In this document: positions 3,369 through 17,689 of the stretch, piece by piece
How the letters are laid out: each line of letters starts with the position of its first letter
Position numbering within the stretch: the first letter of the stretch is position 1
DNA from: a virus
Taxonomy: Duplodnaviria > Heunggongvirae > Uroviricota > Caudoviricetes
Virus record (IMG/VR): IMGVR_UViG_2541047861_000012
Coordinates: 1 to 19,841 of that record
Length of the DNA: 19,841 nt
Reading direction: 5' to 3' (one strand)
Notes under the pieces: model-generated
What the model was told of the DNA's origin: nothing
Database searches by the model: none
What the model saw: the letters and a program-made list of their open reading frames with translations, nothing else
Program-made: the position numbers and the translations under genes

Positions 3369-3395
3369 CCCGCAAAATATTGCGGGCTTTTTTTT
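3369..3395 (+). terminator. rho-independent terminator oriented for plus-strand transcription
   Basis: 7-bp stem CCCGCAA (3369-3375) / TTGCGGG (3380-3386), loop AATA, then C plus T8 (3388-3395). The minus-strand RNA would have no U-tract after the hairpin (reads UAUCAAAAACGG). Confidence 0.5.
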
Positions 3396-6300
3396 AACGT
3401 TCTTCCAGAGACTGAATCCGCTCTTTTATCTTATCCATTTCTCTGCGCTGCCATGCTGCCTCGATATAGAATAAGAGATCAGGTCTGACCCCCCATCTAG
3501 ATCCTGCTGGCGTTATTTCAACGCGCTCAATGATGTCTTCCATTACCATCACTGGATTATCATCCTCATCAACAATGATGCTCCCGTCATTATCAGTCAG
3601 CTGTATTTCCCTTTGGCCAGTAATGACGTCATCATATACTGCGGGATAATCGTCATAGCAAAGAAAGGCATAGCGGCATGTTGTGCTTTCTTCTTCCATG
3701 AGTCCGTGAGAAATAAGAACATCACGAAGTTGCTGCGCGATTACACCATGATGTATCCTCGCCCCTTCTTCTCCCTTTATAGCGACAGCGTTCAGCCATT
3801 TATAAGCGATATACCTGACGTCACCCCAGGCATCCAGCAATGCTTCGTCAGGAGAGACCGGCTCTGTCTTTAATGTTCCGTCACTGGTAACCACAGGATT
3901 GGAGCCAAGATAAACTGTCGAGAACCTGTTTCCCGGACCACCAAGAGCATTTACATTATCAAGATAAGGTTTAACATCTCCGTTCTCAAAAAGATGTTCG
4001 AGTGCGTTATATACCGCGCGACGTGGAGTACTGCTTCCGGAACCATGCAACGTTATCATTGCACCATCTGCTGAAGACGTTGTTTCACCGCCGCTAACGA
4101 TTAATCTCTGAGCGGTAACATCATCAGACGGTACTTTCTTCGCAATAATGGCGTAATTGCCCTCCAGTTTGACTTCCGCGCGAACTTGTCCTGATGTACC
4201 TGCATGGACAGTCAGTGACTGGACGGCAACATCATCTGTGAAATCAACGGGTACAGGAACCGTCCTCACGCCGGACGTCGACATAAAAGTAGGAAGCGTT
4301 CTGTTAGGAGTGGCTCCGTAGACAAAATCCCTTGAAACAAATTCTTCCTGTTTAATTTTCACCCTGAAACAATACAAATCAGCCGGGTGACCATCGTGAA
4401 CATAAGGATATTTTCTGTTGTTATCCCCTATGCTCCATGGGTTTAGAAAGTCTTCCCCACCGAAAATGTAGTACAGCCAGTTGTCTTTGATACAAACTGA
4501 ACCAACACCAACCGCAGAGTTAACTATTCCGCCCTGATAAATCTGATCAGTAACATTAACCCACTCTACATTATCCAGACTCCACTCATTGACGTTAACT
4601 CTGGTCATAAATGTTCTTGGATAATTTCCTGCATAACGGTTATCAGGTTCTCCTCCTTCCCACTCACCAAATGCGCGCTCACTGCCAAAAATAATCAGCT
4701 CATCGCCAACTTTGGCAAAAGGAAGGTTTGAGTGATGAACATTATTTGGGAAGCGAAGAGAATTCCATGATGCACCTAAATCAGAGCTTCTGTGCAATGA
4801 ACTACCGGGTTGAGTACTTAATGTCCCCCTGGTCGTCAGATACAGAATGCCATCATAATATTTTACACATGGCTCAGATGCATTCGCCTCATATTCTGCA
4901 GGTATGCGTCTGCGAACAAAGCTACCAGGAGAACCGAAAGCATCAGAGAAATAGAGTATCCCAAGCTCGCGTGGACCAATATCACCATTATGGTAGCCAA
5001 CAGCAAAACTGTTATCGCTAATCGTCGCAAAACTGTGAATCTCAGTAACAGGAGTGCTTCCGTCAACAAAAGAAGAAATAGTTCCAAGACTGGTTTTTCT
5101 CCATGGTGACGAGTGAAATGATGTACCAAAACTCCAGTATCTACCCTCGTTATTCTGATCCACATCCTGAGTATTTTGCGTCGTAACTGTAAAAGTATTT
5201 TTATCAATAACAGTAGTCACCGTCATATTCCCGGTAACACCTGTAACACCAGAGTTTGAGAAGTTGACAAAATCACCAGCAAATAATCCGTGATCAGTAA
5301 TGCGAATATAAGCGACTTGCTGATTTGCTGCTTTCGTTATACCACCATAAACGCGAAGGCTGCGACTCATTGGACGATCCCACAACTCTGCAACCTGCAG
5401 TTTATTTCCGCGCACGGTCCGCGTCTCAATTACAGCAAAAAGGCGATTTCTGACAACCCCCATACTCATGCAGTGATAGTTAACTGTGGGATAGTTTTCA
5501 TGTAAATCTGTAAGCCATTCCGGCGTTGTCCAGGTCTTCCCGTCATCTCCTGAGCGAACCCATGCAACATGGAGGTTATTTACACCATGGCGGTCTCCAG
5601 CCATAAAAGGCGCATAGATGACATTGTCATATACAAACGTTTTATCCTGCGTCCAGGCGTTGTACCACGGTGTATCTGTAATTTTAAATAACTCTCCCTG
5701 GATAAAATCTTCAGAAGCATAAAAAAGAGGCTGACCCGGTATTCTCTCAAATAAAAAACGAGCATTTTTAAATCGGCTGACATCCGGAAGAGTTGATACT
5801 TTAAAAGTAAGCCCTAATCCGTCAATTTTATAACCTGGAGATGAGGCTTCAAGGCACGCGCTTATTGCAGTGGAATCGTCATTTATACCATCACCAACAG
5901 CTCCAAAATCTTTGGGGCTAATAGCATCACGCATTTTATCCTGGAACGTTCGGTATACTGCCCCAGAACCATACTGAATAAACCAACCAAAACCACCAAC
6001 AACCCCGGCGATTGCAGCATCGACATAATTACGCATTGAGCGATTATTTACAGCGTCCTGTTCAAGTGATGGATCTGCAAGGTTAGAAATTCTGTTTTGC
6101 TTTGCATCGTAATATTTTGCAAGCAAAGATGGTTTCATCAATGCACGTCTGAACCATCCAAAACATTGCTGGATCAGCATCGTCAGGTAGTCAAAGGCAT
6201 CTTCATGCACTTCGGGGAAAAACTTTCCCTGATTGCGAAGGTCTGTCTCCTGCACTACATCAAGCACACGATCTATCGTAATTCTCCATCCAGTAGCAAG

Positions 6301-6513
6301 CGGCGACGGAAGAACCACAGAACCGCCACTATAAGTGCCCGCCCCAGTTACCGTATAACCGGTATCCAGAACCAATTCTGTTACGTTCCCGTTCAGGTCA
6401 GACACCTGAACAACCAGGTCGGATTTTCTGAAAATTCGAAAAGTATACGGAAACGATGTCGTAACGCCGTTACCGGTGTATTCGTTGTGGTCAACTTCGG
6501 TTGAGACCGTCAT
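3394..6513 (-). CDS. tailspike/tail fibre with depolymerase domain (T7 gp17-like N-terminal anchor, Asp-box sialidase-like region, C-terminal S74 intramolecular-chaperone domain)
   Basis: GGAG 7 nt upstream of ATG 6513; residues about 10-115 resemble the T7 tail-fibre N-terminal particle-binding domain; pectate-lyase-like motif DFGAVGDGINDDSTAISA (201-219); Asp boxes SGDDGKTW (321-328) and SSDLGASW (576-583); predicted autocleavage site VVTS/DG (877/878) followed by a chaperone-like C-terminus. Substrate not determinable by eye. Confidence 0.85.
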   Translation of the reverse strand: MTVSTEVDHNEYTGNGVTTSFPYTFRIFRKSDLVVQVSDLNGNVTELVLDTGYTVTGAGTYSGGSVVLPSPLATGWRITIDRVLDVVQETDLRNQGKFFPEVHEDAFDYLTMLIQQCFGWFRRALMKPSLLAKYYDAKQNRISNLADPSLEQDAVNNRSMRNYVDAAIAGVVGGFGWFIQYGSGAVYRTFQDKMRDAISPKDFGAVGDGINDDSTAISACLEASSPGYKIDGLGLTFKVSTLPDVSRFKNARFLFERIPGQPLFYASEDFIQGELFKITDTPWYNAWTQDKTFVYDNVIYAPFMAGDRHGVNNLHVAWVRSGDDGKTWTTPEWLTDLHENYPTVNYHCMSMGVVRNRLFAVIETRTVRGNKLQVAELWDRPMSRSLRVYGGITKAANQQVAYIRITDHGLFAGDFVNFSNSGVTGVTGNMTVTTVIDKNTFTVTTQNTQDVDQNNEGRYWSFGTSFHSSPWRKTSLGTISSFVDGSTPVTEIHSFATISDNSFAVGYHNGDIGPRELGILYFSDAFGSPGSFVRRRIPAEYEANASEPCVKYYDGILYLTTRGTLSTQPGSSLHRSSDLGASWNSLRFPNNVHHSNLPFAKVGDELIIFGSERAFGEWEGGEPDNRYAGNYPRTFMTRVNVNEWSLDNVEWVNVTDQIYQGGIVNSAVGVGSVCIKDNWLYYIFGGEDFLNPWSIGDNNRKYPYVHDGHPADLYCFRVKIKQEEFVSRDFVYGATPNRTLPTFMSTSGVRTVPVPVDFTDDVAVQSLTVHAGTSGQVRAEVKLEGNYAIIAKKVPSDDVTAQRLIVSGGETTSSADGAMITLHGSGSSTPRRAVYNALEHLFENGDVKPYLDNVNALGGPGNRFSTVYLGSNPVVTSDGTLKTEPVSPDEALLDAWGDVRYIAYKWLNAVAIKGEEGARIHHGVIAQQLRDVLISHGLMEEESTTCRYAFLCYDDYPAVYDDVITGQREIQLTDNDGSIIVDEDDNPVMVMEDIIERVEITPAGSRWGVRPDLLFYIEAAWQRREMDKIKERIQSLEER

Positions 6514-7282: not shown

Positions 7283-7978
7283 ATGACAGCTACAAAAAGC
7301 ACGTCCATTTTTTCTTTCGAATCCCAAGCCGATATACGGGTAATCGTCATTAATGGTGAGCCATGGTTTATCGCTTCAGATGTTTGTCGGGCTATAGGCA
7401 TAGCAAACCATCGAGATGCTGTTCGAAAACTTGATGATGATGAGAAGGGCGTCGCTTCAACCGACACCCCTGGCGGTGAGCAAGAATCGATCATCATCTC
7501 CGAGTCAGGCCTCTACACACTGATCCTCCGCTGCCGCGACGCAGTGACACCAGGCACTATCCCCTACCGCTTTCGTAAATGGGTTACAGGTGAGGTTCTT
7601 CCTCAGATCCGCCGCACCGGAAGTTACATTAAAAACTCGCTCCCGCAGGAAGAACGCATAAAGATGGTTGCCGACCAGGTAGCCAACGCCACAGCATCAG
7701 CAGTGATGCAGGCAATGAAGATAGAGAACAAAACCTACAGTGCCCCGCTGAAGCCCGGCTACCGCAGTTTGATTCACTCGCCGTCTGGTGTTCTCGGCCT
7801 GACGGAGAACTCACTGCTGATGAATTTGCTGAACCAGTTACAGGAAGACGGGCATGACGTATCGGGCGCGGCGGCGGAACTGACCACCATGTTCTGCTAC
7901 ATCGTCGGTGTGAGTAAATGCCTGCGTGATATCCAGACTCACGCGGAGTACATCAACGACAAAGCAGGATTCTTCTGA
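7283..7978 (+). CDS. antirepressor-like protein (Bro-N N-terminal domain plus shared antirepressor C-terminal module)
   Basis: AAGG about 8 nt upstream of ATG 7283; Bro-N signature FESQADIRVIVINGEPWFIASDVCRAIG...ESGLYTLILRCRDAVTPGTIPYRFRKWVTGEVLPQIRRTG; last 77 residues identical to those of 8987-9925. Confidence 0.8.
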   Translation: MTATKSTSIFSFESQADIRVIVINGEPWFIASDVCRAIGIANHRDAVRKLDDDEKGVASTDTPGGEQESIIISESGLYTLILRCRDAVTPGTIPYRFRKWVTGEVLPQIRRTGSYIKNSLPQEERIKMVADQVANATASAVMQAMKIENKTYSAPLKPGYRSLIHSPSGVLGLTENSLLMNLLNQLQEDGHDVSGAAAELTTMFCYIVGVSKCLRDIQTHAEYINDKAGFF

Positions 7979-8000
7979 CGGGCGGCGGCACAGGGATGTG
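7745..8000. repeat. inverted repeat copy A (3' end of gene 7283-7978 plus about 22 bp)
   Basis: Reverse complement matches 8964-9220 at about 93% identity (16 mismatches in the 231 coding nt plus one indel in the 3' flank). Similarity begins exactly at the first codon of the shared 77-aa module. Confidence 0.85.
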
Positions 8001-8206: not shown

Positions 8207-8842
8207 ATGCCACAACAACTGCTGAATCCGGCAAAGGTAACTGAGGTTTTCGCTCATCTGAACGAAACTCCAGACAACCGCGCCCTGTATTCAGAGTTAG
8301 TGAACGGCAACGATGTCACATCTGATGTCAAAGGCGTTTCTCTGGCTCCTGGATACCGCGTTGTCCGTGTAGACGATCGTAAGAAAGGCGAGATTCCACA
8401 GGCGCACTTTGAACTGTCATTGATAAATGACCTCACCGAAGAGGTAGTGTATTACAATCGTGTCATTATCCAGCCTGACAGCTATCTTAACTGCCGTCCT
8501 GTCACGCAGATATTGGTATGGAGAACCCAGAAGCCTAAGCATCGTGCTGTGCTTCATGATTTCGCTGGCATCATCTTCATGAACTACCTCTTGGAACGGT
8601 ACGATATCATCGTGTCTGATCGCAACCAGACTCATGAAGGCATGTCGTTCTGGCAGGCTCGCATGTATGACGCACTGGAACTTGGCCTCCATCTCTATGG
8701 TTACGACATGATGACATGCGAACTTATAGAGATGAATAACGAGGAAGAACTTGAGAAAGGTGAAACCTGGTTGTGGGGTGATGCGGAAAACTTCCAAAAC
8801 AGATTGGCCATAATTTCAAAGCATAAGCTGCCAATAAAATAG
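8207..8842 (+). CDS. hypothetical protein, 211 aa, no recognisable domain (orphan moron between the two antirepressor genes)
   Basis: ATG 8207 with GAGG SD 6 nt upstream; uninterrupted 211-codon ORF; no TM segment or signal peptide; own strong terminator at 8851-8871; lies inside the segment bracketed by the 256-bp inverted repeat. Confidence 0.7.
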   Translation: MPQQLLNPAKVTEVFAHLNETPDNRALYSELVNGNDVTSDVKGVSLAPGYRVVRVDDRKKGEIPQAHFELSLINDLTEEVVYYNRVIIQPDSYLNCRPVTQILVWRTQKPKHRAVLHDFAGIIFMNYLLERYDIIVSDRNQTHEGMSFWQARMYDALELGLHLYGYDMMTCELIEMNNEEELEKGETWLWGDAENFQNRLAIISKHKLPIK

Positions 8843-8963: not shown

Positions 8964-9220
8964 CACGTCCCTGTGCCGCCGTTCTGTCAGAAGAACCCTG
9001 CCTTGTCGTTGATGTATTCCGCGTGCGTCTGGATATCACGCAGGCATTTGCTCACACCAACGATGTAGCAGAACATGGTGGTCAGCTCCGCCGCCGCGCC
9101 CGATACATCGTGCCCGTCTTCCTGTAACTGGTTCAGCAGATTCATCAGCAGTGAGTTCTCCGTCAGGCCGAGAACACCCGACGGCGAATGAATCAGACTG
9201 CGGTAGCCTGGCTTCAATGG
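8964..9220. repeat. inverted repeat copy B (3' end of gene 8987-9925 plus about 23 bp)
   Basis: Partner of 7745-8000; see copy A. Confidence 0.85.
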
Positions 9221-9925
9221 ATAACCATAACATTTTGTCTGTGTTTTAATTGCCTCACGAAGCGCATCTAACATCTTGACTGCCACTTCATCATTCTCTG
9301 ATGCAGATCCAGCAGGGAGATACTCCCCTTCAAGCGGAACCCGAGCAACAAGAGACAACGCTTCGGCAAATTGATCTTCACCAATTTCTTTGTACGAACA
9401 GCCAAAATGAGATTTCAGTGACGACCACATGGTGATCATCGCCTTAGCCTGTTTTTCTTTTGGCAGAGACTGACCGCGACTCATGACGAGTTGTTTAATG
9501 GCTTCCTGCTGTTCAGTTGTTATTTTACCCGGCAACGCCTTTTTAGCTTTGCGTGGGTTAACCACATGGCCTTTAGTCCAGTACTCGTAGAGCACATCGT
9601 CACACTCTTCCTGATACTGGATTACCTTGTCGCGGATTTCAGGGCGGACTTTGTTAGGGCTGATGCTGTTCAACCAAGCTGCCAATTTTCGTAAAGCCAT
9701 ACAAATCATGGCTTGCACCCCACCGGCAGAAGGTATGGTGATTTCCACCATACCCTTCGAGAAGCGTTGAGAAATCTTCTTATGTTGAGATTTCCAGTCT
9801 AGCCCCATTCCCTCAACGATAGGTTTCATTGGGGTATACGGTTCGCCGTTGTGATTGACAACATAAAGCTCTGCGCCGTGGAATGGCACGTTGATAGTAG
9901 ATACTGCTGTTGCTATACTCGTCAT
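8987..9925 (-). CDS. ant: antirepressor (Ant-like; AntA/P22-Ant-type N-terminal domain plus shared C-terminal module)
   Basis: 312 aa; follows the arc-like gene on the same strand after a 72-bp spacer; N-terminal region INVPFHGAELYVVNHNGEPYTPMKPIVEGMGLDWKSQHKKI resembles phage antirepressor N-terminal domains; C-terminal 77 aa identical to 7283-7978. The symbol is given by position and domain analogy to P22 ant. Confidence 0.8.
   Translation of the reverse strand: MTSIATAVSTINVPFHGAELYVVNHNGEPYTPMKPIVEGMGLDWKSQHKKISQRFSKGMVEITIPSAGGVQAMICMALRKLAAWLNSISPNKVRPEIRDKVIQYQEECDDVLYEYWTKGHVVNPRKAKKALPGKITTEQQEAIKQLVMSRGQSLPKEKQAKAMITMWSSLKSHFGCSYKEIGEDQFAEALSLVARVPLEGEYLPAGSASENDEVAVKMLDALREAIKTQTKCYGYPLKPGYRSLIHSPSGVLGLTENSLLMNLLNQLQEDGHDVSGAAAELTTMFCYIVGVSKCLRDIQTHAEYINDKAGFF
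9891..9919 (+). promoter_or_regulatory. candidate sigma70 promoter for an antisense (sar-like) RNA
   Basis: -35 TTGATA (9891-9896), 17-bp spacer, -10 TATACT (9914-9919); predicted start near 9926, i.e. opposite the ant start codon (9923-9925). Confidence 0.4.
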
Positions 9926-9999
9926 GTCGTTAATTCCTATACGTAGTTTTACGATACTGAAGCCCTGACGGTCTGGCCACCGTGGGGCTTCGCTGTTTT
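9926..9999 (+). ncRNA. predicted sar-like antisense RNA covering the arc-ant intercistronic region and ant ribosome-binding site
   Basis: Transcript predicted from promoter 9891-9919; ends at stem GAAGCCC (9959-9965) / GGGCTTC (9985-9991) with inner stem ACGG/CCGT, followed by GCUGUUUUA (9992-10000). About 70 nt, same size and topology as P22 sar RNA. Confidence 0.35.
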
Positions 10000-10165
10000 A
10001 TGCCACGCTATTCTTCTCACCAGTGAGTCCATACACTTTCCTCAGCTGATAGATAATCTCTGTATTGAACTTTCGGCATTCTTTTTCGCCATTTCTTTCA
10101 ATAGCTAACTTCACATCGTCCGGAAAACGAACTCGTCGTTGACACATCTCTTTTGCTTTTTGCAT
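9998..10165 (-). CDS. arc: Arc-like ribbon-helix-helix repressor
   Basis: AAGGAG SD 7 nt upstream of ATG 10165 (the longer ORF from 10186 lacks an SD); 55 aa MQKAKEMCQRRVRFPDDVKLAIERNGEKECRKFNTEIIYQLRKVY... matches the Arc/MetJ RHH pattern (compare P22 Arc RWPREV...NGRSVNSEIYQRV); first gene of an arc-ant operon. Confidence 0.8.
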   Translation of the reverse strand: MQKAKEMCQRRVRFPDDVKLAIERNGEKECRKFNTEIIYQLRKVYGLTGEKNSVA

Positions 10166-10179
10166 TTCATATCTCCTTA

Positions 10180-10248
10180 GCCCCACCGTGGGGCAAAATA
10201 ATTGTCACACCGTGCGTCATTGATGTCAAGCACACGGTGAGGCATACT
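10180..10248. promoter_or_regulatory. immI-type control region: overlapping divergent promoters with repeated CACCGTG/CACGGTG operator heptads
   Basis: Near-palindrome GCCCCACCGTGGGGC (10180-10194); CACCGTG at 10208-10214; CACGGTG at 10233-10239; a fourth copy GCCACCGTGGGGC at 9976-9988. Minus-strand promoter: -35 TTGACA (complement of 10224-10229), -10 GACAAT (complement of 10201-10206). Plus-strand promoter: -35 TTGATG (10220-10225), -10 CATACT (10243-10248). The heptad core matches the CCACGGTGG core I recall for the P22 Mnt operator. Confidence 0.55.
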
Positions 10249-10285
10249 TCAATCATTGCAAGTAACTCAATATTTGGTGAAGAAC

Positions 10286-10717
10286 ATGAGCAGAGAAGAT
10301 CCACAACTAAGGATCAGACTTCCCGTCGAAGTAAAAGAAAAAATAGAAATTTCTGCAAAAGCCAATAAGCGATCAATGAACGCTGAAATAGTACAACGTC
10401 TTGACACCAGCTTTCTGAAAGATATTCATGAAGATGACGTAATTTCTGCTTATGAAGCAAAAATCATTGCAAACAATGCACGACATGAAATATCAAATAT
10501 TATTTTCAAAAGAACCTTTAATGAAATTAATAAGAAAATAACACTTGGACATACAAGTTTTTATATAAACCTTAATGACCTTGAACTGGAATCACTTGCA
10601 GATAATGATTACCAGATCATCTTTGAAAAAACATTTAATAGGCTCAATGAACTAGGTTACATCATCTGTGAAAACTCATGGGATGCAGATGGTTTTGGAA
10701 TTGAAATACCTGAATAG
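10286..10717 (+). CDS. mnt: Mnt-like ribbon-helix-helix repressor with a novel C-terminal extension (chimeric)
   Basis: ATG 10286 preceded by GGTGA (the ORF track begins at TTG 10256); N-terminus MSREDPQLRIRLPVEVKEKIEISAKANKRSMNAEIVQRL closely parallels P22 Mnt (ARDDPHFNFRMPMEVREKLKFRAEANGRSMNSELLQIV); 143 aa versus 83 aa for Mnt; the extra acidic C-terminal part lies in the AT-rich block. Confidence 0.75.
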   Translation: MSREDPQLRIRLPVEVKEKIEISAKANKRSMNAEIVQRLDTSFLKDIHEDDVISAYEAKIIANNARHEISNIIFKRTFNEINKKITLGHTSFYINLNDLELESLADNDYQIIFEKTFNRLNELGYIICENSWDADGFGIEIPE

Positions 10718-10807
10718 GAAGAACAAAAGGCGTGTACATATTACACGTCTTTAATACAATTGAAAAACGCCACATTACTGATGTATGTTACAACAAGGAG
10801 CGATATT

Positions 10808-11371
10808 TTGAAAACCATATCTATATTAAAGGTTGCATTAGGCGTCGCTATTATTTTGACTCTCTCAATATTGTTTTATTTTTACCACAAACAAACTGCT
10901 ATTGCTCTTGATAGTCACGCGGCAAACTCATTTTTCTCAGAGTACATAGTGCCGCTATCAGGAAGCGGTATAACAAATAAATATACTGACTATGACATCA
11001 AATATGGAATTGATGATGGGGAGACTATTGTATTACATGTAATCATTAAAAACCTAATGACAGTAAATAAAAATACAGACTTCAACGATAAAAATACAAT
11101 ACATCACAACAACAGCAAAACATTAATTTCTTATAGTAGCAACATCTATACGGATAAATACCTAAAATACATATCAGAAGATACAATAAAAGAAACCCGC
11201 GAAAAGTTAAAAAACATATATTGTGCATCCGGCAGTTTTCACAAATTATCGCCGCAAGAGCGTTTATTCTACGAAGCAAGAAAACAACGTAAGTCAATAA
11301 TATTACATTATTATGCTGATTCAGGGGAGACACTCATATTTAATATTGGGGTTTCCCCTGAATCATGCTAA
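10808..11371 (+). CDS. single-pass membrane protein of unknown function in the sieA position (candidate superinfection-exclusion/defence moron)
   Basis: AAGGAG (10795-10800) 7 nt before in-frame TTG 10808; alternative in-frame starts at ATG 10781 and TTG 10760 (ORF track). N-terminal TM helix ISILKVALGVAIILTLSILFYFY then an Asn/Lys/Tyr-rich soluble domain; very low G+C; stop 11 bp from the stop of the convergent 1004-aa gene. Confidence 0.65.
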   Translation: MKTISILKVALGVAIILTLSILFYFYHKQTAIALDSHAANSFFSEYIVPLSGSGITNKYTDYDIKYGIDDGETIVLHVIIKNLMTVNKNTDFNDKNTIHHNNSKTLISYSSNIYTDKYLKYISEDTIKETREKLKNIYCASGSFHKLSPQERLFYEARKQRKSIILHYYADSGETLIFNIGVSPESC

Positions 11372-11382
11372 AGGTGTTTAAC

Positions 11383-14300
11383 TCACCGCATCACCGGATC
11401 CACTTGGTTTATTAGTGGCGCAATCCAGAACAGGTTATTGCCGGGTATCAGGGTTCGGACATTATGCACAATACGATCACCGGCATCACCATTCAACACT
11501 CCTGAGGTCACATCAATGATGCTATCCGCAAGACCAAATGACGGTCCGAATAGAGATCCTACGAATCCACGACTGGCATACCTGGACTGTGTGCCAGTGC
11601 CAAATAAAGCCCCCAGCCCAACAGCACCACCAGTCGCCTTTTCAGCCATGTTGTTATATTCCATCAATGGCCCAAGAATACCGGATCTATCTATACCCTC
11701 AAGCACCAGCTTCTCTGGTGACCAGTCAACATTTTTCCCTTTCGATGCTTCTTTAAGCGCATAGACCAGTGAGCCAAGAGCAATCTGAAATGCAGTGCCA
11801 TAATAAAATTGCGCAGTTCCTTCCTGTAACCCACCAAGTAGCGCACGGTTGTATGAAGCCGTTGTGAATGATTTAAACTGAAATATCGTTCGCCCCATTG
11901 GAGTACTCGCCCATAAAGGTGTGTCACCAATACCGGGGGTGATGATAGTGTTATTAACGTCTTTCAGAACCGCTGACTGGAATACTCCGGCAACGTACTG
12001 ATCGTCCCATTTATCAAAGTTACCAATGTGCCATCCATCAATTACCTCACCATGTTTCTCGAACTCACTGCGAATACGCGCAGCCATATTGTCGTTGATA
12101 CCGAGTTTTGCCATGCGACGTGCAGAAAACGCACCAGACAAAATACCGTCTGACGTGAGCATTCCGTTCATGGATTTGTTTATGTCATTAAATCGATCCA
12201 TGAGTGTCAGCTTGCCGAAGGCATCAGTAATTCGCTCCATTCCTGCTTCGACTGCTGTTGTCCTGGAAGAACTGTCAACAAGATCACCAATTGCACGAGA
12301 ACGTGAATGTAGTACAGTTTCCAATCCAATCCCCATCTTCAACATCTCTTCTTTGCTGGCCTTAAATGCCGGTGATTGGGATATCTGAGAAGCATAGCCT
12401 TTCATGGAGTTACGGAAACCATTAACCATAACCCCTCTGGCCAGATCTGGAATAGCTGATACTGTCATTCCACCGAGTTTGGTCGTGAAGTTCACATCCC
12501 GCAGAAAAGCGCCAGCACGAACAAAAAACGAAGACGGGTCATCAGGCATACCATATGTACCAACAAGACGATCGCGTAATGCTGTTATGTCTCTGAGATC
12601 ATTTGCTCTTGATTTTGAAAGTCTGGACTGTTCTTTCCGTAATTCCTTTTCGTACTTTCGCATTAATGAATCGAGTTTACCCTGAGGAACAACTTCACCA
12701 TTGCTCTCATAACGTGCTTTCAGATTTGCCACACTTTCGTCATATTTCGCCTTTATTTTTTCAGGCACTTCCCGTAACAGACTGTCATATTCGTCCTCAA
12801 TTAATTGCAGACGCTCTGTCATAGTTCGTTTGCCAAATGTTCTCGTCAACTCAATTTCTGCTGCCGCTTCACGGATATGACGTTGTAGAACGTAATTCAC
12901 ATCACTTTCGAGATAATCCCTGATAAGACTATCAGGCACATTTAATGTTCTTTCTTTCGTACTACCTGCGGCTTTTACAGAAAATACGCTGACAAAATCC
13001 TGTGGAACCTTAGCACCAGTAATTTTATTAATTACGATATCCGCTGCAATTTCAGCATCCTCAGGATCCAGTGTTTTATTGCCTCTCGACCACCAGTCAA
13101 CCAAAATACGTCGAAATTTATCGCGTTCACTGATTATTTTTCCAACTTTATATATACGTGGGAAATAGCTTGCCTGGCCTAATGCTTTCAGTTCTTCATC
13201 TGGCGGCAATAAACCAAGCTTTTGCATTTCAACCTTCACCCGATTTAATACAGTTCGCATCGCCTGCGCCGTTTCCTGAACAACAGGATTAGCATGCACA
13301 TCACCGCTTCGCATAGCATTCCCAACCTGCTGACGAAATGAATCAAAACTCATGTCACCACCATCAGCTTTATACTTTGCGTATGCCTGTTTATTTCCGA
13401 CAACAACAGCAGCTTCTTCACGCTGCCATCCACGTGTACGGGTTTCTACAGCTACCGGTGTTTCAATCCCCCTTTCATTTCCTTTAAGGGTGAAATTATT
13501 TTCGGCTAACTCCAGCGTTGTTTTTCGCACTGTCTTGGACGGAGACTCCATTAACCTTGTCAAAGGAGTAAGATAGCTCCCTGCTTTCCATGCAGCCTTT
13601 CCAACCACCCCACCGGAAACAGGGGTTAAATCATCCAGAGTCGCTGTATCAATTTTCATAGCACCAACACTACCACCATCAGAAAGCGAAGCGGCAGCCC
13701 TGTCAGTCGCTGATGTAATGCTCATATTATCAAGAGCATCAGCAACCTCACGCGTGGCTGCAGCCCGGACGGATGGCGAAAGCGCAACACCAGCACTGGC
13801 AAACACGCCGCTCATCATCGCACCCGCTGCAATGTGAGCGGCACTTTCACCCCATGAGCGTGTTATTTGCTGATTATTCAGCACAACCTCGCTTAATGCT
13901 GTACCGGCTGCACCAATCGCAATCTGTGAGCCAATACGCGCCAGTGCCCCTCCTTGAGCACCGGGGATAAACATTGACGCAACAGTAACCGGATCCATTC
14001 CCGCAGCAATACTGGCAAGGGTTCCAACTACGCCAGCATCAGACAATAAACGTCTGTCTTCATTTTCATCATCTATCTGCTGCTTAATCCACGCCGTTTC
14101 CTCTGGCGATCGGGAATCTGCAAATTTCGCCCCCCAGTATTCATAACCGTGCAACTCATTTTTATCAGCATATGGGTTATAACCTTCGACCGGTTCAAAC
14201 TGTCTGGCTGGTCGGAAAAAACCAGCCAGAATATTGTTCTGTCGCATTGCAGCCCCCCATACGGAAGGCTCCGGTGGCAATGGCTCAGGATTAGCCCCTT

Positions 14301-14397
14301 CCGGAAGGGCAACATCAAACCCAGTTTGTTCCGGCAAAACATTACCTGACGGGATCAGTCCGTTATTAAGATCTTCAGCTTGTGCATAAACTGGCAT
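11383..14397 (-). CDS. internal virion/ejection protein (large, gp16-like position)
   Basis: 1004 aa; start ATG overlaps the stop of the upstream gene by 1 nt (TAATG at 14395-14399); Gly/Ala-rich hydrophobic segments typical of podovirus core/ejection proteins; last large gene before the immI-like island, as gene 16 is in P22. Confidence 0.75.
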   Translation of the reverse strand: MPVYAQAEDLNNGLIPSGNVLPEQTGFDVALPEGANPEPLPPEPSVWGAAMRQNNILAGFFRPARQFEPVEGYNPYADKNELHGYEYWGAKFADSRSPEETAWIKQQIDDENEDRRLLSDAGVVGTLASIAAGMDPVTVASMFIPGAQGGALARIGSQIAIGAAGTALSEVVLNNQQITRSWGESAAHIAAGAMMSGVFASAGVALSPSVRAAATREVADALDNMSITSATDRAAASLSDGGSVGAMKIDTATLDDLTPVSGGVVGKAAWKAGSYLTPLTRLMESPSKTVRKTTLELAENNFTLKGNERGIETPVAVETRTRGWQREEAAVVVGNKQAYAKYKADGGDMSFDSFRQQVGNAMRSGDVHANPVVQETAQAMRTVLNRVKVEMQKLGLLPPDEELKALGQASYFPRIYKVGKIISERDKFRRILVDWWSRGNKTLDPEDAEIAADIVINKITGAKVPQDFVSVFSVKAAGSTKERTLNVPDSLIRDYLESDVNYVLQRHIREAAAEIELTRTFGKRTMTERLQLIEDEYDSLLREVPEKIKAKYDESVANLKARYESNGEVVPQGKLDSLMRKYEKELRKEQSRLSKSRANDLRDITALRDRLVGTYGMPDDPSSFFVRAGAFLRDVNFTTKLGGMTVSAIPDLARGVMVNGFRNSMKGYASQISQSPAFKASKEEMLKMGIGLETVLHSRSRAIGDLVDSSSRTTAVEAGMERITDAFGKLTLMDRFNDINKSMNGMLTSDGILSGAFSARRMAKLGINDNMAARIRSEFEKHGEVIDGWHIGNFDKWDDQYVAGVFQSAVLKDVNNTIITPGIGDTPLWASTPMGRTIFQFKSFTTASYNRALLGGLQEGTAQFYYGTAFQIALGSLVYALKEASKGKNVDWSPEKLVLEGIDRSGILGPLMEYNNMAEKATGGAVGLGALFGTGTQSRYASRGFVGSLFGPSFGLADSIIDVTSGVLNGDAGDRIVHNVRTLIPGNNLFWIAPLINQVDPVMR

Positions 14398-17114
14398 TAT
14401 TTAGATCCCCACGAAAAGTAATCTTTAAATTTGTCCATACGTTCGTTATGCAGGCGCTGATACTGCTCATCCAGAGCGCGATGCTTGTCTTTGAAGTTTC
14501 GTATAGCCTGTCCACGCATAATTTCTTCCTGCTCGTACTGCTCCCGTTCCTGCTGCATTTTCTTATAAGGTTCCCAATCTTCTAGTGATGGTTCCCAACG
14601 CATAGGACGCCCATGTTTGTTATAAAACGGCTGGACCCGATCGATGCCATTTTCATCCTTAGTTCTTACCATAATGGCGTAATCACCATTACGAGGTGTT
14701 AACACGTCAGGGGTTATGAATAATTCTCCATTAATACGACTCTCAGGGGTTTTTGTCTCAACTACAGGAGCATTACCTGACGTGATCCCAAGCAACGTCG
14801 GACTGGTTGTTATAATCTCTTTGCGCTCACCGTACATCAGCCGTTCTTTTTCAGCTTTCCACTGCGCCGCCTGCCAGCCTGACGGCCCATATTGATAAAG
14901 CGCCTCCGGTGCATATTTCATAAACTGCGCTTCTCCGTTAACCTCGCTGATACTCCAGGTGCGGGCTATCTGCTGGTTGGTCATTTGCTTCGCTACGTCA
15001 GCGTTACCACCAGCAACGCGGTAGTTAATGTCATACAGCGTCTGATAGTCATTACGGAATCTAGCTGCTTCCGGCGTCTGGTCATCCGCAGACGGATCCC
15101 AACGGAACCACTGCGCCATATTGCTGACAGCAGAATTCATCGCCTTGCTGCGATTATTTTTGTACTCTTTTGAACTCTGCGTTGATGCCAATTGAGCTTT
15201 AAGAGCATCGGTCTGGTTGTACGTCAGGTTCTGCGCCTGCTCGATAGCCGCATCAGCAGACATGCCAGAATCTGTTAGTTGCTTAACAGTCAGATAAAAA
15301 CCCTGCATATCCTTCGGCATATTTCCAATAGATGCATTGTCTGTTTCATATAACCGACTAAACAAATTCGCTGCATTTTTAACCACTTCCTGATTGCTGG
15401 ATCTGGATACTGCTGAAAGCTGCGTGATGACCTGCGAAGGCATGATGCCAGTCTGAGCCACAAGCCGAACAACCCCATCATGAGTGGAGGCATCATTAAT
15501 ACGAAAGTTCTGCGCCATTTCTGTGTAATCAGCAGCTTTCTGCATTGATTTGTTGCTTGGGTCTAATTTTTCACCTATTGTCAGCGCCTCATTGAATCTG
15601 CGTGAATCACGTTGCGCCTGAATTGCTTCATTTGATCGCTGAAGCAATGCAGACAATTTTCCGTAAGCATCGAGTTTTAACGCATAGTGAGGATCGTTAA
15701 CCTCAGGCTTCACTTTCTGCATTTCTTCTTGCTGCTGAGAAGGAGGTAAATACTGAATTGCCTGGAATATTCTCGCGTTATCAATCGCTATATCCAGTTG
15801 ATTGATTATTTTATCTGCATTTTTTCCATACCCCCTGATGATAGTCTCCTGAGCCGGTATATAATCTGGAACCTCACCGTTATATAGCTGGGCCATGGTG
15901 TTATTAATAGCTGGCTCAAGCTGTTCTAATATTAACTTCCTTTGCTTTTCTATCTGACTATTAGCAAGGTTATCTATTTGATAAATAGTCAGCGGATCCA
16001 TTCCAGTTTTATTTTTTCTATATCGGGAAAGCCACCCTTGTGTTTCTGATGGAAGATTTCGGATAAATTCTTCTTCTGATATTTCACCTTTACGTGGATC
16101 ACCGACTTTGGCGATCAGTTTATCCACGTTACCCATCCCCCAGTTATATGCTGCTCCGGTCAATATTTCGGAGCCGTACTTACCATACAGTTGATTTACA
16201 TAGTCACTGGCGAGCATTTCATGCTGTTGTTCGTCCGTAGGGTTGTATTTAACGCCACGCTTGGCCGCCAGTTCTTTCCCTGTGCCCGGCATTAACTGGT
16301 ATTTCCCCTGGGCTCTCTCTCCAGAAGATGTTATCGGTCCTTCAAGAAGACTACCATCAGGATTAAAATGTCGATCACCTGATTCAACAAGGCGTATGGC
16401 ACGCATGTCCATGCCTCCAGAATCATTTTTCTGAAACAGACCATTTAGCCATCCTTCTGGATTGGCAGCGGCATAATTCTTCGCCCGCATTTCTGTGGCA
16501 CGGCGATCATCACTTTCTATTTCTTCCAGAATGCGTTCTTGTGACCATCCCCTGGCAGCTCCATATCTAGCAATGGCTACCATTCTGGAATTTCTGGCTA
16601 AAGTGGCAGTTTGCGGGTCATTCCAGGCATCCGCTTCATTTTGTATCCATAATTTTCTCGTTGCCTGATATTGCTCATCTTCATAGGCATTTGTCTGCCC
16701 TATCTCATGTCTGAGAACTCCAGTACTGAACTGAATTTTCTGTGTTCTGGCTTGTTGCAAAAACATATTTCTTGCTGCTTCATCAGTCAATGAAGCAGCT
16801 ATTTCTTCCACATCCTGATCAAATCCAGATATGTACTCTTGCCCCTTACCAATCGCATTTTTGCCTTGTTGTGCATAAAAACCGGTTTGAGGGTTATAAA
16901 GACGTTCATTGCTGCGCTGATTAAGCTGAAGGATGGCATCCTGAGACAATGCAACATTCGCTTTCTGCCTGGCTTCACCATATGCCACCGCATACTGATC
17001 TGCGACATTCGCCAGCACCTGACCTGCTTGAGGAACATCGAAGATCTGAAAACCACCGGTTTGCACACCACGACTTTGCACCTGGCGTCCGGATGTAGTA
17101 GGAACAACAGGCAT
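14397..17114 (-). CDS. internal virion protein with soluble lytic transglycosylase (SLT) domain
   Basis: 905 aa; SLT signature around residues 236-330 (RLVESGDRHF...GKYQLMPGTGKE...AAYNWGMGNV); 1-nt start/stop overlaps with both neighbours. Confidence 0.8.
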   Translation of the reverse strand: MPVVPTTSGRQVQSRGVQTGGFQIFDVPQAGQVLANVADQYAVAYGEARQKANVALSQDAILQLNQRSNERLYNPQTGFYAQQGKNAIGKGQEYISGFDQDVEEIAASLTDEAARNMFLQQARTQKIQFSTGVLRHEIGQTNAYEDEQYQATRKLWIQNEADAWNDPQTATLARNSRMVAIARYGAARGWSQERILEEIESDDRRATEMRAKNYAAANPEGWLNGLFQKNDSGGMDMRAIRLVESGDRHFNPDGSLLEGPITSSGERAQGKYQLMPGTGKELAAKRGVKYNPTDEQQHEMLASDYVNQLYGKYGSEILTGAAYNWGMGNVDKLIAKVGDPRKGEISEEEFIRNLPSETQGWLSRYRKNKTGMDPLTIYQIDNLANSQIEKQRKLILEQLEPAINNTMAQLYNGEVPDYIPAQETIIRGYGKNADKIINQLDIAIDNARIFQAIQYLPPSQQQEEMQKVKPEVNDPHYALKLDAYGKLSALLQRSNEAIQAQRDSRRFNEALTIGEKLDPSNKSMQKAADYTEMAQNFRINDASTHDGVVRLVAQTGIMPSQVITQLSAVSRSSNQEVVKNAANLFSRLYETDNASIGNMPKDMQGFYLTVKQLTDSGMSADAAIEQAQNLTYNQTDALKAQLASTQSSKEYKNNRSKAMNSAVSNMAQWFRWDPSADDQTPEAARFRNDYQTLYDINYRVAGGNADVAKQMTNQQIARTWSISEVNGEAQFMKYAPEALYQYGPSGWQAAQWKAEKERLMYGERKEIITTSPTLLGITSGNAPVVETKTPESRINGELFITPDVLTPRNGDYAIMVRTKDENGIDRVQPFYNKHGRPMRWEPSLEDWEPYKKMQQEREQYEQEEIMRGQAIRNFKDKHRALDEQYQRLHNERMDKFKDYFSWGSK

Positions 17115-17689
17115 CAGTAACCTCCTATTTTGAATCGGGAGTCAGAATTCATAAAACCTGAGTTAGATAACATTGGCGTCCCACCACTAGATGTACTTCC
17201 TTTAGAGAACGGACTCCACGTCCCACCAAACATCTGGTACGCACCGTATGCCTTCAGAGGCGCAGTGAGCAATGTTGTTGCTGCTCCCACATTCCCCTGT
17301 TTACGGGCTGAACTGGCTTCTGCTTTATAGTTGGCAGCCTGAACCTGATAACCGTAAGCCTCGCGTTGCGCGTTATTCACCGTCGTCAGAGAATCAAGAG
17401 CGCCAAACTGGGCAGTGTCGCCAAATATATCCAGCGCGTTACCTGTAGATAAATCAGCGCCGGTAGCCCCCATTGTCGCCGCCTGTGTACCAAGCCGCTG
17501 TCGGGTCTCTCTGCGCCGTTGCTCAGCTTCAGCGTTACCTCTGTTTATTGCATCATTTGCCTGAGCTGTGGCTATATCTGCGTTCGCTTCTGCAACCTTC
17601 GAGGCATACTTTCCCTGTTGGTACTGGGTGTATGCCTGAATGCCACTCATGGCGAGCATTGCGCCACCAGCAATAACCGGATCGCACAT
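17114..17689 (-). CDS. internal virion protein A-like (T7 gp14-like)
   Basis: 191 aa beginning MCDPVIAGGAMLAMSGIQA..., resembling the N-terminus of T7 gp14; Ala/Gln-rich; translationally coupled to neighbours. Confidence 0.65.
   Translation of the reverse strand: MCDPVIAGGAMLAMSGIQAYTQYQQGKYASKVAEANADIATAQANDAINRGNAEAEQRRRETRQRLGTQAATMGATGADLSTGNALDIFGDTAQFGALDSLTTVNNAQREAYGYQVQAANYKAEASSARKQGNVGAATTLLTAPLKAYGAYQMFGGTWSPFSKGSTSSGGTPMLSNSGFMNSDSRFKIGGY

What the first reader, a model, noticed from the sequence alone, without database searches (positions are those of the whole stretch)
10286..11371. AT-rich two-gene moron in the sieA position: chimeric Mnt-type repressor plus single-pass membrane protein
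From about 10430 to 11345 the G+C content falls to roughly 22-35% (for example 13 G/C in the 60 nt at 10501-10560) against about 50% in the flanking phage genes. The block ends 11 bp from the stop of the convergent 1004-aa virion gene. It encodes the C-terminal ~95 residues of a 143-aa protein whose N-terminal RHH is Mnt-like and lies in normal-G+C DNA, so the gene looks like a fusion of a resident mnt 5' end to imported sequence. It also encodes a 187-203-aa protein with one N-terminal TM helix and an Asn/Lys/Tyr-rich domain I cannot match to any family. In P22 the slot between the last ejection-protein gene and mnt holds sieA, so this pair is a prime candidate for a horizontally acquired superinfection-exclusion or anti-phage function.
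Basis: partly seen in the sequence, partly recalled or inferred. Interest (0 to 1): 0.72.

Follow-up and report, generated by a model that had tools for sequence, protein, structure and literature searches.

The report
Prophage immunity switch plus candidate exclusion gene
The AT-rich block is real, but its first gene is an ordinary full-length member of a widespread phage repressor family rather than a fusion, and its second encodes a small uncharacterised protein that probably faces the periplasm, always sits beside the phage's DNA-injection genes, and may block infection by related phages.

Summary
The G+C dip is real: 31.6% over 10430-11345, against 47.1% (sd 3.2) elsewhere in the window. 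It starts near 10330, at the 5' end of ORF1, not in mid-gene.

ORF1 (10286-10717, 143 aa) is not a chimera. More than 260 full-length homologues (59-70% identical among the 120 listed) occur across Enterobacterales. In the four other prophage types checked, each lies divergent from a small arc-like gene plus an antirepressor. ORF1 aligns with all 82 residues of P22 Mnt and adds a family-wide 57-residue alpha/beta domain. Together with arc, ant, a sar RNA (Rfam) and conserved CAC(C/G)GTG sites, it forms a complete P22-type immI switch.

So the two genes are not an obligate pair. Superinfection exclusion is a reasonable but untested function. Moderately interesting.

The parts
8987..9925 (-). 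ant antirepressor (312 aa)
   Evidence: Pfam P22_AR_N, E 5.9e-45. RefSeq calls it a phage antirepressor N-terminal domain protein.
9927..9994 (+). sar antisense RNA homologue in the arc-ant spacer
   Evidence: Rfam RF00262, 44.8 bits (gathering score 43), E 3.3e-7, full model 1-68. The complementary (minus) strand of this spacer, the only strand folded, gives -22.5 kcal/mol, z -2.9.
9998..10165 (-). arc-like gene (55 aa from ATG 10165)
   Evidence: phrog_228 Arc-like repressor, E 1.8e-5. Pfam Arc is weak, E 0.15. Annotated as a 55-aa Arc-like repressor in TL-2011b. A 55-58-aa gene holds the same place next to every ORF1 homologue examined.
10181..10243 (.). divergent control region
   Evidence: Contents: the palindrome GCCCCACCGTGGGGC (10181-10195), CACCGTG/CACGGTG sites at 10207-10218 and 10232-10243, and a Pant-like promoter on the minus strand (TTGACA 10229-10224, 17 nt, TG-GACAAT 10206-10201). 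Four of the five CAC(C/G)GTG copies in the window lie in 9978-10239. The core is invariant across Enterobacter, Yersinia, Proteus and E. coli loci. The palindrome sits where P22 Omnt (GGTCCACGGTGGACC) sits, between the Pant -10 and arc.
10286..10717 (+). ORF1: long Mnt-type repressor (143 aa). RHH 1-46, helix 55-86, extra alpha/beta domain 87-143.
   Evidence: Pfam Arc, E 1e-14. BLASTP against P22 Mnt: residues 2-86 align with 1-82, E 2e-13. AlphaFold2 pLDDT 82.6. 261 homologues, most full-length (alignment A3).
10726..10752 (+). 11-bp hairpin between ORF1 and ORF2 (possible leaky terminator; overlaps a weak promoter-like site)
   Evidence: The fold is not significant on its own (z -1.65). Retained, with one stem change, in sister prophages.
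10808..11371 (+). ORF2 (187 aa): N-terminal anchor or signal peptide, then a probably periplasmic domain with Cys139 and Cys187
11383..14397 (-). 1004-aa last internal-core (ejection) protein gene, convergent on ORF2
   Evidence: It follows a T7 gp14-family gene (17114-17689, PF24072, 33.7 bits) and an SLT-domain gene (14397-17114). A Vibrio phage homologue is annotated as an internal virion protein.

Best explanation
The region is the immunity-I (immI) module of a TL-2011b-like temperate podophage, followed by one accessory gene.

ORF1 is the Mnt-equivalent maintenance repressor. As a dimer-of-dimers RHH protein it would bind the CAC(C/G)GTG palindromes that overlap the divergent Pant and Pmnt promoters, and so keep arc-ant silent in the lysogen. 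It has the RHH and tetramerisation helix of Mnt plus a 57-residue alpha/beta domain that the whole family shares. That domain's role is unknown; higher-order oligomerisation or signal or partner binding are possible (inferred).

ORF2 is a separate gene that is probably expressed from the prophage. It would be read from the mnt-side strand by read-through of a weak hairpin and/or from its own promoter. Its product would be exported: a positively charged N-terminus and a 21-residue hydrophobic segment, then a roughly 150-residue domain in the periplasm, probably held by a Cys139-Cys187 disulfide. The fold resembles the peptide-binding periplasmic proteins PA3611 and AspS.

The most likely role is superinfection exclusion at the DNA-delivery step. 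The domain would bind or obstruct the trans-envelope conduit built by incoming core proteins of phages of the same type. That would make it a non-homologous analogue of P22 SieA.

Shown: gene structures, homologies, gene neighbourhood, conserved cysteines, predicted fold. Inferred: periplasmic location, expression in the lysogen, operator binding, exclusion activity.

Confidence by part: ORF1 as an Mnt-type repressor that is not a chimera, about 0.85. ORF2 as a periplasmic envelope protein, about 0.8. ORF2 as an exclusion factor, about 0.4.
For: ORF1:
- Arc/Mnt RHH.
- Aligns over all of Mnt.
- Full-length family across genera.
- Divergent from an arc-like gene plus an antirepressor in all four other prophage types examined.
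- sar RNA present.
- Operator-like palindrome in the Omnt position, with the control region conserved between genera.
- Synonymous changes outnumber non-synonymous ones among E. coli copies.

ORF2:
- One N-terminal hydrophobic segment and only two cysteines. Cys139 is invariant and Cys187 nearly so (at least 90%) across homologues 26-48% identical.
- Some homologues have classical cleavable signal peptides.
- Confident model. Its top hits are the periplasmic proteins PA3611 and AspS, which share its helix/strand order and a disulfide linking alpha2 to the C-terminal helix.
- 7 of 7 contexts are convergent on, and 2-35 nt from, the last core-protein gene.
- In P22 this slot holds sieA, whose product blocks the conduit formed by ejection proteins gp16 and gp20 (PMC10883804).
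- Sister prophages with 96-97% identical core genes carry other AT-rich small membrane proteins in the slot.
- E. coli copies show a high share of non-synonymous changes (10:6, 10:8, 5:1, 3:0).
Against: - There are no expression or phenotype data.
- ORF2 is unrelated to SieA in sequence (hhalign probability 0.4%) and in topology (one hydrophobic segment against three transmembrane helices).
- The Cys-Cys distance in the model could not be measured.
- Promoter-like matches upstream of ORF2 are no more frequent than in shuffled sequence.
- The slot occupant does not co-vary with the core protein. Nearly identical core genes sit beside different occupants.
- The excess of non-synonymous changes rests on few substitutions and could equally mean relaxed constraint.
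Confidence: 0.5

Rival explanations
1. ORF2 is a lysogenic-conversion or fitness factor that acts on a host envelope machine rather than on incoming phage. For example, it could be a pilotin-like binder of a secretin or another periplasm-spanning assembly, changing secretion, piliation or envelope properties of the lysogen.
For: - The best structural matches are PA3611 and the T2SS pilotin AspS, which binds the secretin S-domain.
- Probably periplasmic, with a conserved disulfide.
- Genes placed downstream of ORF1 homologues elsewhere include gtrABC, which converts the O-antigen.
Against: - There is no lipobox, which AspS has (sequence).
- The strict link to the phage's core-protein genes in 7 of 7 contexts fits a phage-directed target better.
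Confidence: 0.22
2. One reading: a recently imported two-gene cassette in which a chimeric Mnt (resident RHH fused to foreign sequence) regulates or cooperates with the membrane protein as one anti-phage unit.
For: Both genes are AT-rich (32.6% and 32.4% G+C, against 46.3% for the window). They are adjacent on one strand, 90 nt apart.
Against: - ORF1 is a normal full-length family member.
- There is no break in composition or homology at the domain boundary.
- ORF1 homologues lack ORF2 in Enterobacter, Yersinia, Proteus and E. coli prophages.
- ORF2 homologues follow other genes (a 120-aa RHH protein, Bro-N, ORF6N, a divergent 175-aa gene).
Confidence: 0.08
3. ORF2 serves the phage's own infection cycle, for example by helping its own ejection conduit, virion assembly or lysis, rather than protecting the lysogen.
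For: The gene is fixed next to the core-protein genes across genera. Its divergence rises as that of the adjacent core protein does (48/69, 28/50 and 29/about 40% identity).
Against: - It lies on the strand opposite the late operon.
- It is absent from sister prophages with 96-97% identical core genes and from Klebsiella and E. coli relatives, so the phage does not need it.
Confidence: 0.1
4. ORF1 and ORF2 form a type II toxin-antitoxin or abortive-infection pair (RHH antitoxin plus membrane toxin).
For: An acidic RHH protein (pI 4.96) lies upstream of a membrane protein. RHH domains are common in antitoxins, and FitA-like and HicB models give weak hits.
Against: - The two genes do not co-occur outside this phage type.
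- ORF1 is embedded in a full mnt/arc/sar/ant module.
- PADLOC gives nothing for ORF1 and only a 15-bit ThsB match for ORF2.
Confidence: 0.03

Closest known systems
P22 Mnt repressor and the immI region (mnt, Pmnt/Pant, arc, sar, ant)
   Same: - RHH with an Mnt-like N-terminal arm, and alignment over all 82 Mnt residues.
- Divergent from arc-ant, with a sar RNA in the arc-ant spacer.
- A CCAC-N-GTGG palindrome between the Pant -10 and arc, as for Omnt.
- The same gene order relative to the last ejection-protein gene and the tailspike.
   Different: - Three CAC(C/G)GTG sites rather than one operator.
- The backbone is a podophage with T7-type core proteins, not a P22-like phage.
P22 SieA (superinfection exclusion, inner membrane; PMC10883804)
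   Same: - The slot: next to, and convergent on, the last ejection-protein gene, on the mnt strand.
- Small and membrane-associated.
- Carried by only some members of the phage group.
   Different: - No sequence relationship (hhalign probability 0.4%).
- SieA has three transmembrane helices and a conserved motif predicted to be cytoplasmic. ORF2 has one N-terminal hydrophobic segment and a soluble domain containing the disulfide cysteines.
- ORF2 function is untested.
PA3611 (PDB 3npd) and the AspS-type T2SS pilotins (4ftf, 5zdh)
   Same: - Small periplasmic alpha/beta domain with the order alpha1, beta1-3, alpha2, alpha3, beta4-5, C-terminal helix.
- Conserved Cys pair at the end of alpha2 and the C-terminus.
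   Different: - No sequence similarity.
- No lipobox.
- A 29-residue low-confidence insert.
- Encoded by a phage.
Phage morons (for example lambda bor/lom, HK97 gp15, cor)
   Same: An AT-rich accessory gene inserted at the edge of the virion-gene cluster, on the opposite strand. The slot holds different occupants in sister prophages.
   Different: - Its own promoter and terminator are not demonstrated.
- The family is not a sporadic import. It keeps one position across at least four host genera.

Membership tests
Arc/Mnt RHH repressors (Pfam PF03869) | Ribbon-helix-helix domain matching the family model above its cut-off | tested here: met
   54.5 bits against a cut-off of 20.4, residues 2-46. 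PDB sequence hits are Arc, Mnt (1mnt) and AmrZ.
P22 Mnt-type maintenance repressor | C-terminal helix after the RHH (the tetramerisation element in Mnt) | tested here: met
   BLASTP alignment runs through Mnt residues 52-82. The model has a long helix at 55-86. Oligomeric state was not tested.
P22 Mnt-type maintenance repressor | Encoded divergently from arc-(sar)-ant, with overlapping face-to-face promoters | tested here: met
   Arc-like, sar and ant identified. Pant-like promoter. The same arrangement appears in Enterobacter, Yersinia, Proteus and E. coli loci.
P22 Mnt-type maintenance repressor | Binds a symmetric operator overlapping Pant and represses ant | not testable with these tools
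   A candidate operator exists in the right place and is conserved. Binding and repression need experiments.
P22 SieA | Sequence homology to SieA types A-C, including the FxRYPxEAxxFNK motif | tested here: not met
   hhalign probability 0.4% against P22 SieA (type A only; types B and C were not compared). The ORF2 sequence has no RYP. The motif is described.
P22 SieA | Integral inner-membrane protein with three transmembrane helices | tested here: not met
   One hydrophobic segment only. The model shows one N-terminal helix plus a globular domain.
P22 SieA | Gene lies between the last ejection-protein gene and mnt, on the mnt strand | tested here: met
P22 SieA | Blocks DNA injection by phages with cognate ejection proteins | not testable with these tools
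   Needs plating and DNA-entry assays.
AspS/PA3611 periplasmic fold | Structural superposition with the solved members | tested here: inconclusive
   [not shown]
AspS/PA3611 periplasmic fold | Conserved disulfide tying the C-terminal helix to alpha2 | tested here: inconclusive
   Two conserved Cys (Cys139 invariant, Cys187 in at least 90% of members) at the end of helix 124-138 and at the C-terminus.
AspS/PA3611 periplasmic fold | Sequence-level homology; a lipobox for the pilotins | tested here: not met
   No Pfam or PDB sequence match to these proteins for 17 family members. There is no Cys in the N-terminal region of ORF2.
Type II toxin-antitoxin pair | The two genes co-occur as an obligate pair | tested here: not met
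   ORF1 homologues occur alone. ORF2 homologues occur with other neighbours.
Moron (autonomous accessory transcription unit) | Base composition distinct from the flanks | tested here: met
   31.6% against 47.1% G+C. ORF2 homologues are 33-37% G+C in loci of 39-51%.
Moron (autonomous accessory transcription unit) | Own promoter and terminator; expressed from the prophage | tested here: inconclusive
   Consensus matches do not exceed shuffled sequence. In four of the seven contexts (the Providencia, Serratia, L030 and L032 loci) the upstream gene is on the other strand, so a promoter must exist there. Expression is untested.
Thoeris ThsB (TIR) | Match to the PADLOC model | tested here: not met
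   15.2 bits, E 0.005, over an Asn/Lys-rich stretch that largely overlaps the low-confidence insert. A cytoplasmic TIR domain is incompatible with a secreted, disulfide-containing domain.

The most novel reading that the evidence does not exclude
The ORF2 family is a previously unrecognised class of periplasmic superinfection-exclusion proteins. In this reading, an inner-membrane-tethered or secreted domain with a PA3611/AspS-like fold captures a segment of the incoming core (ejection) proteins and stops the trans-envelope DNA conduit from forming. The gene stays linked to the last core-protein gene, so that exclusion specificity travels with the ejection-protein type. It would be a non-homologous counterpart of SieA in temperate podophages with T7-type cores. 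Separately, the extra C-terminal domain of the 'long Mnt' family could be a sensor that couples antirepressor release to a signal.
Probability: 0.3. Interest if true: 0.65.

Novelty: new variant of a known kind. Interest (0 to 1): 0.45.

Why it matters
Few superinfection-exclusion mechanisms that act on DNA delivery are understood; P22 SieA got a mechanistic model only in 2024. ORF2 is a second, unrelated protein family fixed in the equivalent genomic slot of a different podophage lineage. Its soluble periplasmic domain should be easy to handle biochemically, so it would give a direct way to study how ejected core proteins assemble in the periplasm. The gene occurs in about 0.7% of complete E. 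coli genomes, among them APEC O2:K1:H7 and ETEC strains and the O103:H25 HUS outbreak strain that carried TL-2011b. It could therefore affect phage-therapy host range. The 'long Mnt' family is common across Enterobacterales, including Yersinia pestis, and its conserved extra domain is uncharacterised.

Tried and rejected
- Chimeric mnt: rejected on the full-length family, per-segment identity, GC3 and the breakpoints seen in sister prophages.
- Obligate two-gene system or toxin-antitoxin pair: rejected on gene distribution.
- SieA homology: rejected.
- ThsB/TIR hit: rejected as a 15-bit match in a compositionally biased region.
- BFVD viral structure library: nothing significant for ORF2. The afdb50 library was unavailable.
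- Promoter and terminator scans: uninformative in AT-rich DNA.
- My early label 'epsilon15-like' was wrong. The core protein's relatives are TL-2011b, two Klebsiella phages and E. coli phage EC.W1-9, and Vibrio podophages.
- Literature searches for the accessions, for TL-2011b, and for epsilon15 plus exclusion found nothing on these genes.
Full report
**What the window is**

Window 9900-11500 is 99.4% identical to the temperate podophage TL-2011b and 100% identical to a prophage of APEC E18055 O2:K1:H7. The prophage lies next to the host gene yfgI.

Three genes sit upstream of the finding on the minus strand:
- a T7 gp14-family gene (17114-17689, PF24072);
- an SLT-domain gene (14397-17114);
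- the 1004-aa gene (11383-14397).

I read these as the set of internal core (ejection) proteins. That is an inference from gene order and homology. Relatives of the 1004-aa protein are TL-2011b, two Klebsiella phages and E. coli phage EC.W1-9 (45% identity), and Vibrio podophages (about 36%). My first label, 'epsilon15-like', was wrong.

**Checking the observation**

The G+C dip is real and extreme for this window. The block 10430-11345 is 31.6% G+C. All 916-nt windows outside it average 47.1% (sd 3.2, minimum 41.0), and 10501-10560 has 13 G/C.

The two ORFs and the 11-nt gap to the convergent gene are as described.

One detail is wrong. The steepest fall is at about 10328, just inside the 5' end of ORF1. 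The RHH-coding part is already 37.6% G+C with GC3 0.30. There is therefore no composition boundary at the junction between domains.

ORF2 starts at TTG 10808, after AAGGAG. A 4-nt indel in sister prophages puts the upstream candidate starts out of frame.

**ORF1 is an Mnt-type repressor, not a chimera**

- It has an Arc/Mnt RHH (Pfam, E 1e-14; PDB sequence hits to Arc, Mnt and AmrZ).
- BLASTP aligns its residues 2-86 with all 82 residues of P22 Mnt, including the C-terminal helix (E 2e-13). The AlphaFold2 model (pLDDT 82.6) shows the RHH, a long helix at 55-86 and a compact beta-alpha-beta-beta domain at 87-143.
- The whole 143-aa protein is an established family. It matches phrog_1388 over 143/143 positions. 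It has 261 homologues; of the 120 listed, nearly all are 59-70% identical and cover 99-100% of it. They come from Citrobacter, Enterobacter, Salmonella, Klebsiella, Yersinia (including Y. pestis), Proteus, Serratia and others.
- Identity to relatives by segment is 81/57/55% for the window protein, against 83/66/59% among the other members. The C-terminal part is therefore a normal family member.
- In siphovirus-type prophages of Enterobacter, Y. pestis and Proteus, and in a P22-like E. coli prophage, the homologue lies divergent from a 55-58-aa arc-like gene plus one or more antirepressors. Nothing resembling ORF2 lies downstream.

The rest of the immI module is present in the window:
- an arc-like gene (9998-10165);
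- ant (P22_AR_N, E 6e-45);
- a sar antisense RNA homologue at 9927-9994, above Rfam's gathering score.

The divergent control region holds a Pant-like promoter and three CAC(C/G)GTG sites. One of them is the perfect palindrome GCCCCACCGTGGGGC. It lies between the Pant -10 and arc, where P22 places Omnt (GGTCCACGGTGGACC). Four of the window's five CAC(C/G)GTG copies fall within 260 bp here. The core of the region is invariant across genera, which fits the invariant N-terminal arm MSREDPQLRIRLP.

Sister E. coli prophages that lack this module lose all of 9901-11386. Their homology to the window resumes at 11387, a few nt from the stop of the 1004-aa gene.

ORF1-family genes run 2-9 G+C points below their surroundings in every host examined. 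The window copy (32.6%) resembles the Proteus copy (31.3%). An origin of the arc/ORF1/ORF2 block in a lower-G+C phage pool is therefore plausible. A fusion within the gene is not.

**ORF2 is the real unknown**

- It matches no Pfam, NCBIfam or meaningful PADLOC family. It matches only phrog_8033, which has no known function.
- The word-indexed search found essentially itself plus one protein 48% identical. The exhaustive profile search found 18 relatives, the distant ones 26-33% identical. A profile search with those added members named from Serratia, Providencia and Proteus.

All members share three features:
- a positively charged N-terminus followed by a hydrophobic segment (some have classical cleavable signal peptides);
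- conserved LSG..A..FF..Y.VP and YYD..G..L.F..G..P.SC motifs;
- two conserved cysteines: Cys139 is invariant and Cys187 is present in at least 90% of members. They are the only cysteines in ORF2.

This points to a periplasmic domain stabilised by a disulfide.

The AlphaFold2 model is confident (pLDDT 81.7, pTM 0.70), apart from a 29-residue Asn/Lys-rich insert that the distant members lack.

The published description of AspS and PA3611 gives the same order of secondary-structure elements. It also describes a conserved disulfide linking alpha2 to the C-terminal helix (PMC3542185). That is where ORF2's two cysteines sit.

**Gene neighbourhood of ORF2**

In all seven independent contexts, the ORF2-family gene is convergent on, and 2-35 nt from, the 3' end of the last core-protein gene (936-1133 aa). 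The contexts are:
- the window;
- a metagenomic relative whose core protein is 69% identical;
- Providencia loci;
- Serratia loci;
- three further metagenomic contigs.

The gene on the other side varies: ORF1, an unrelated 120-aa RHH protein, Bro-N, ORF6N, or a divergent 175-aa gene.

ORF2 identity falls as core-protein identity falls, but faster: 48/69, 28/50 and 29/about 40%. The family stays at 33-37% G+C in loci of 39-51% G+C. The AT-richness is therefore a lasting trait of the family rather than a sign of recent arrival.

The gene is dispensable:
- E. coli prophages with 96-97% identical core genes carry instead a 175-aa protein with an N-terminal transmembrane segment, or a 98-aa protein with two hydrophobic segments. 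The DNA of the 175-aa alternative is also AT-rich.
- A Klebsiella relative and the E. coli phage EC.W1-9 carry a co-directional gene there.

Among E. coli copies, ORF1 shows mostly synonymous change (6:3, 5:2, 3:1). ORF2 shows mostly non-synonymous change (6:10, 8:10, 1:5, 0:3). This is suggestive, but the counts are small.

**Comparison with P22**

P22's gene order is 16, sieA, orf59a, mnt, arc, sar, ant, 9, the same as here. SieA is a 3-TM inner-membrane protein that blocks the DNA conduit formed by ejection proteins gp20 and gp16. Only a third of P22-like phages carry it (PMC10883804).

ORF2 is unrelated to SieA in sequence (hhalign probability 0.4%) and in architecture.

**Interpretation**

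ORF1 is the Mnt-equivalent of a complete and highly mobile immI switch (confidence about 0.85). It carries an uncharacterised extra domain that the whole family shares.

ORF2 is an independent envelope protein that is probably expressed from the prophage. I favour superinfection exclusion at the DNA-delivery step (about 0.4) for four reasons:
- its slot is analogous to that of sieA;
- it is strictly linked to the core-protein genes;
- it probably faces the periplasm;
- it appears to evolve quickly.

The rival readings are:
- a conversion factor that acts on the host envelope, possibly binding a secretin (about 0.22);
- a role in the phage's own cycle (about 0.1);
- a toxin-antitoxin pair (about 0.03).

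**Verdict**

The 'chimera' and 'pair' readings are not supported. The 'sieA-slot exclusion candidate' reading survives, for ORF2 alone, as an untested but well-framed hypothesis. It is a new variant of a known kind and moderately interesting.

Noticed in passing
window 9927-9994 (+): A sar antisense RNA homologue (Rfam RF00262, 44.8 bits, full length) lies in the arc-ant spacer. Its 3' hairpin contains CCACCGTGGGGC, an exact copy of the core of the operator-like palindrome at 10183-10194.
   Followed up: partly
window 7710-7979 and 8986-9255: A 270-nt inverted repeat (89% complementary) encodes the shared C-terminal ~85 residues of a Bro-N protein (7283-7978, +) and Ant (8987-9925, -). It brackets 1006 nt that hold a 211-aa ORF of unknown function (8207-8842, phrog_1349). 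Sister prophages show this segment inverted or rearranged, so the repeat may drive inversion or cassette exchange.
   Followed up: partly
window 3394-6513 (-): The tailspike is a 1039-aa endosialidase (specific for the K1 capsule) on a TL-2011b-type backbone. TL-2011b itself has a different tail protein plus an O-acetyltransferase, so the receptor-binding module has been swapped.
   Followed up: partly
L008 5448-5975, L010 5448-5975, L009 5680-5976: Sister E. coli prophages fill the same slot beside the last core gene with other small membrane proteins. One is a 175-aa protein (AT-rich DNA) with an N-terminal transmembrane segment and a probably cytoplasmic domain. The other is a 98-aa protein with two hydrophobic segments, on the opposite strand. 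None has a Pfam match.
   Followed up: partly
L017 5020-5271 (P22 mnt in NC_002371) and phrog_795/phrog_2685: The RefSeq P22 record names the mnt product 'partition protein ATPase', and two PHROGs carry the same label. This looks like a mis-propagated annotation for RHH repressors.
   Followed up: no
L001 9478-9819 (TL-2011b gp40): TL-2011b annotates the ORF1 equivalent as 113 aa. By length this corresponds to a start at internal Met31 (inferred from the annotated coordinates, not checked against the TL-2011b sequence), which would remove most of the RHH. RefSeq E. coli genomes call the full 143 aa.
   Followed up: partly
L021 358-2046; L022/L023 4957-7833: Other defence or conversion cargo sits beside ORF1-family immI modules: an AIPR abortive-infection gene in a Proteus prophage, and gtrA/gtrB/gtrC downstream of the ORF1 homologue in a P22-like E. 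coli prophage.
   Followed up: no
window 10375-10489 (+): A sub-threshold Rfam match to the ribosomal S15 leader (18.8 bits against a gathering score of 39.5, E 0.27) lies inside the ORF1 coding sequence. It is almost certainly chance in AT-rich DNA.
   Followed up: no
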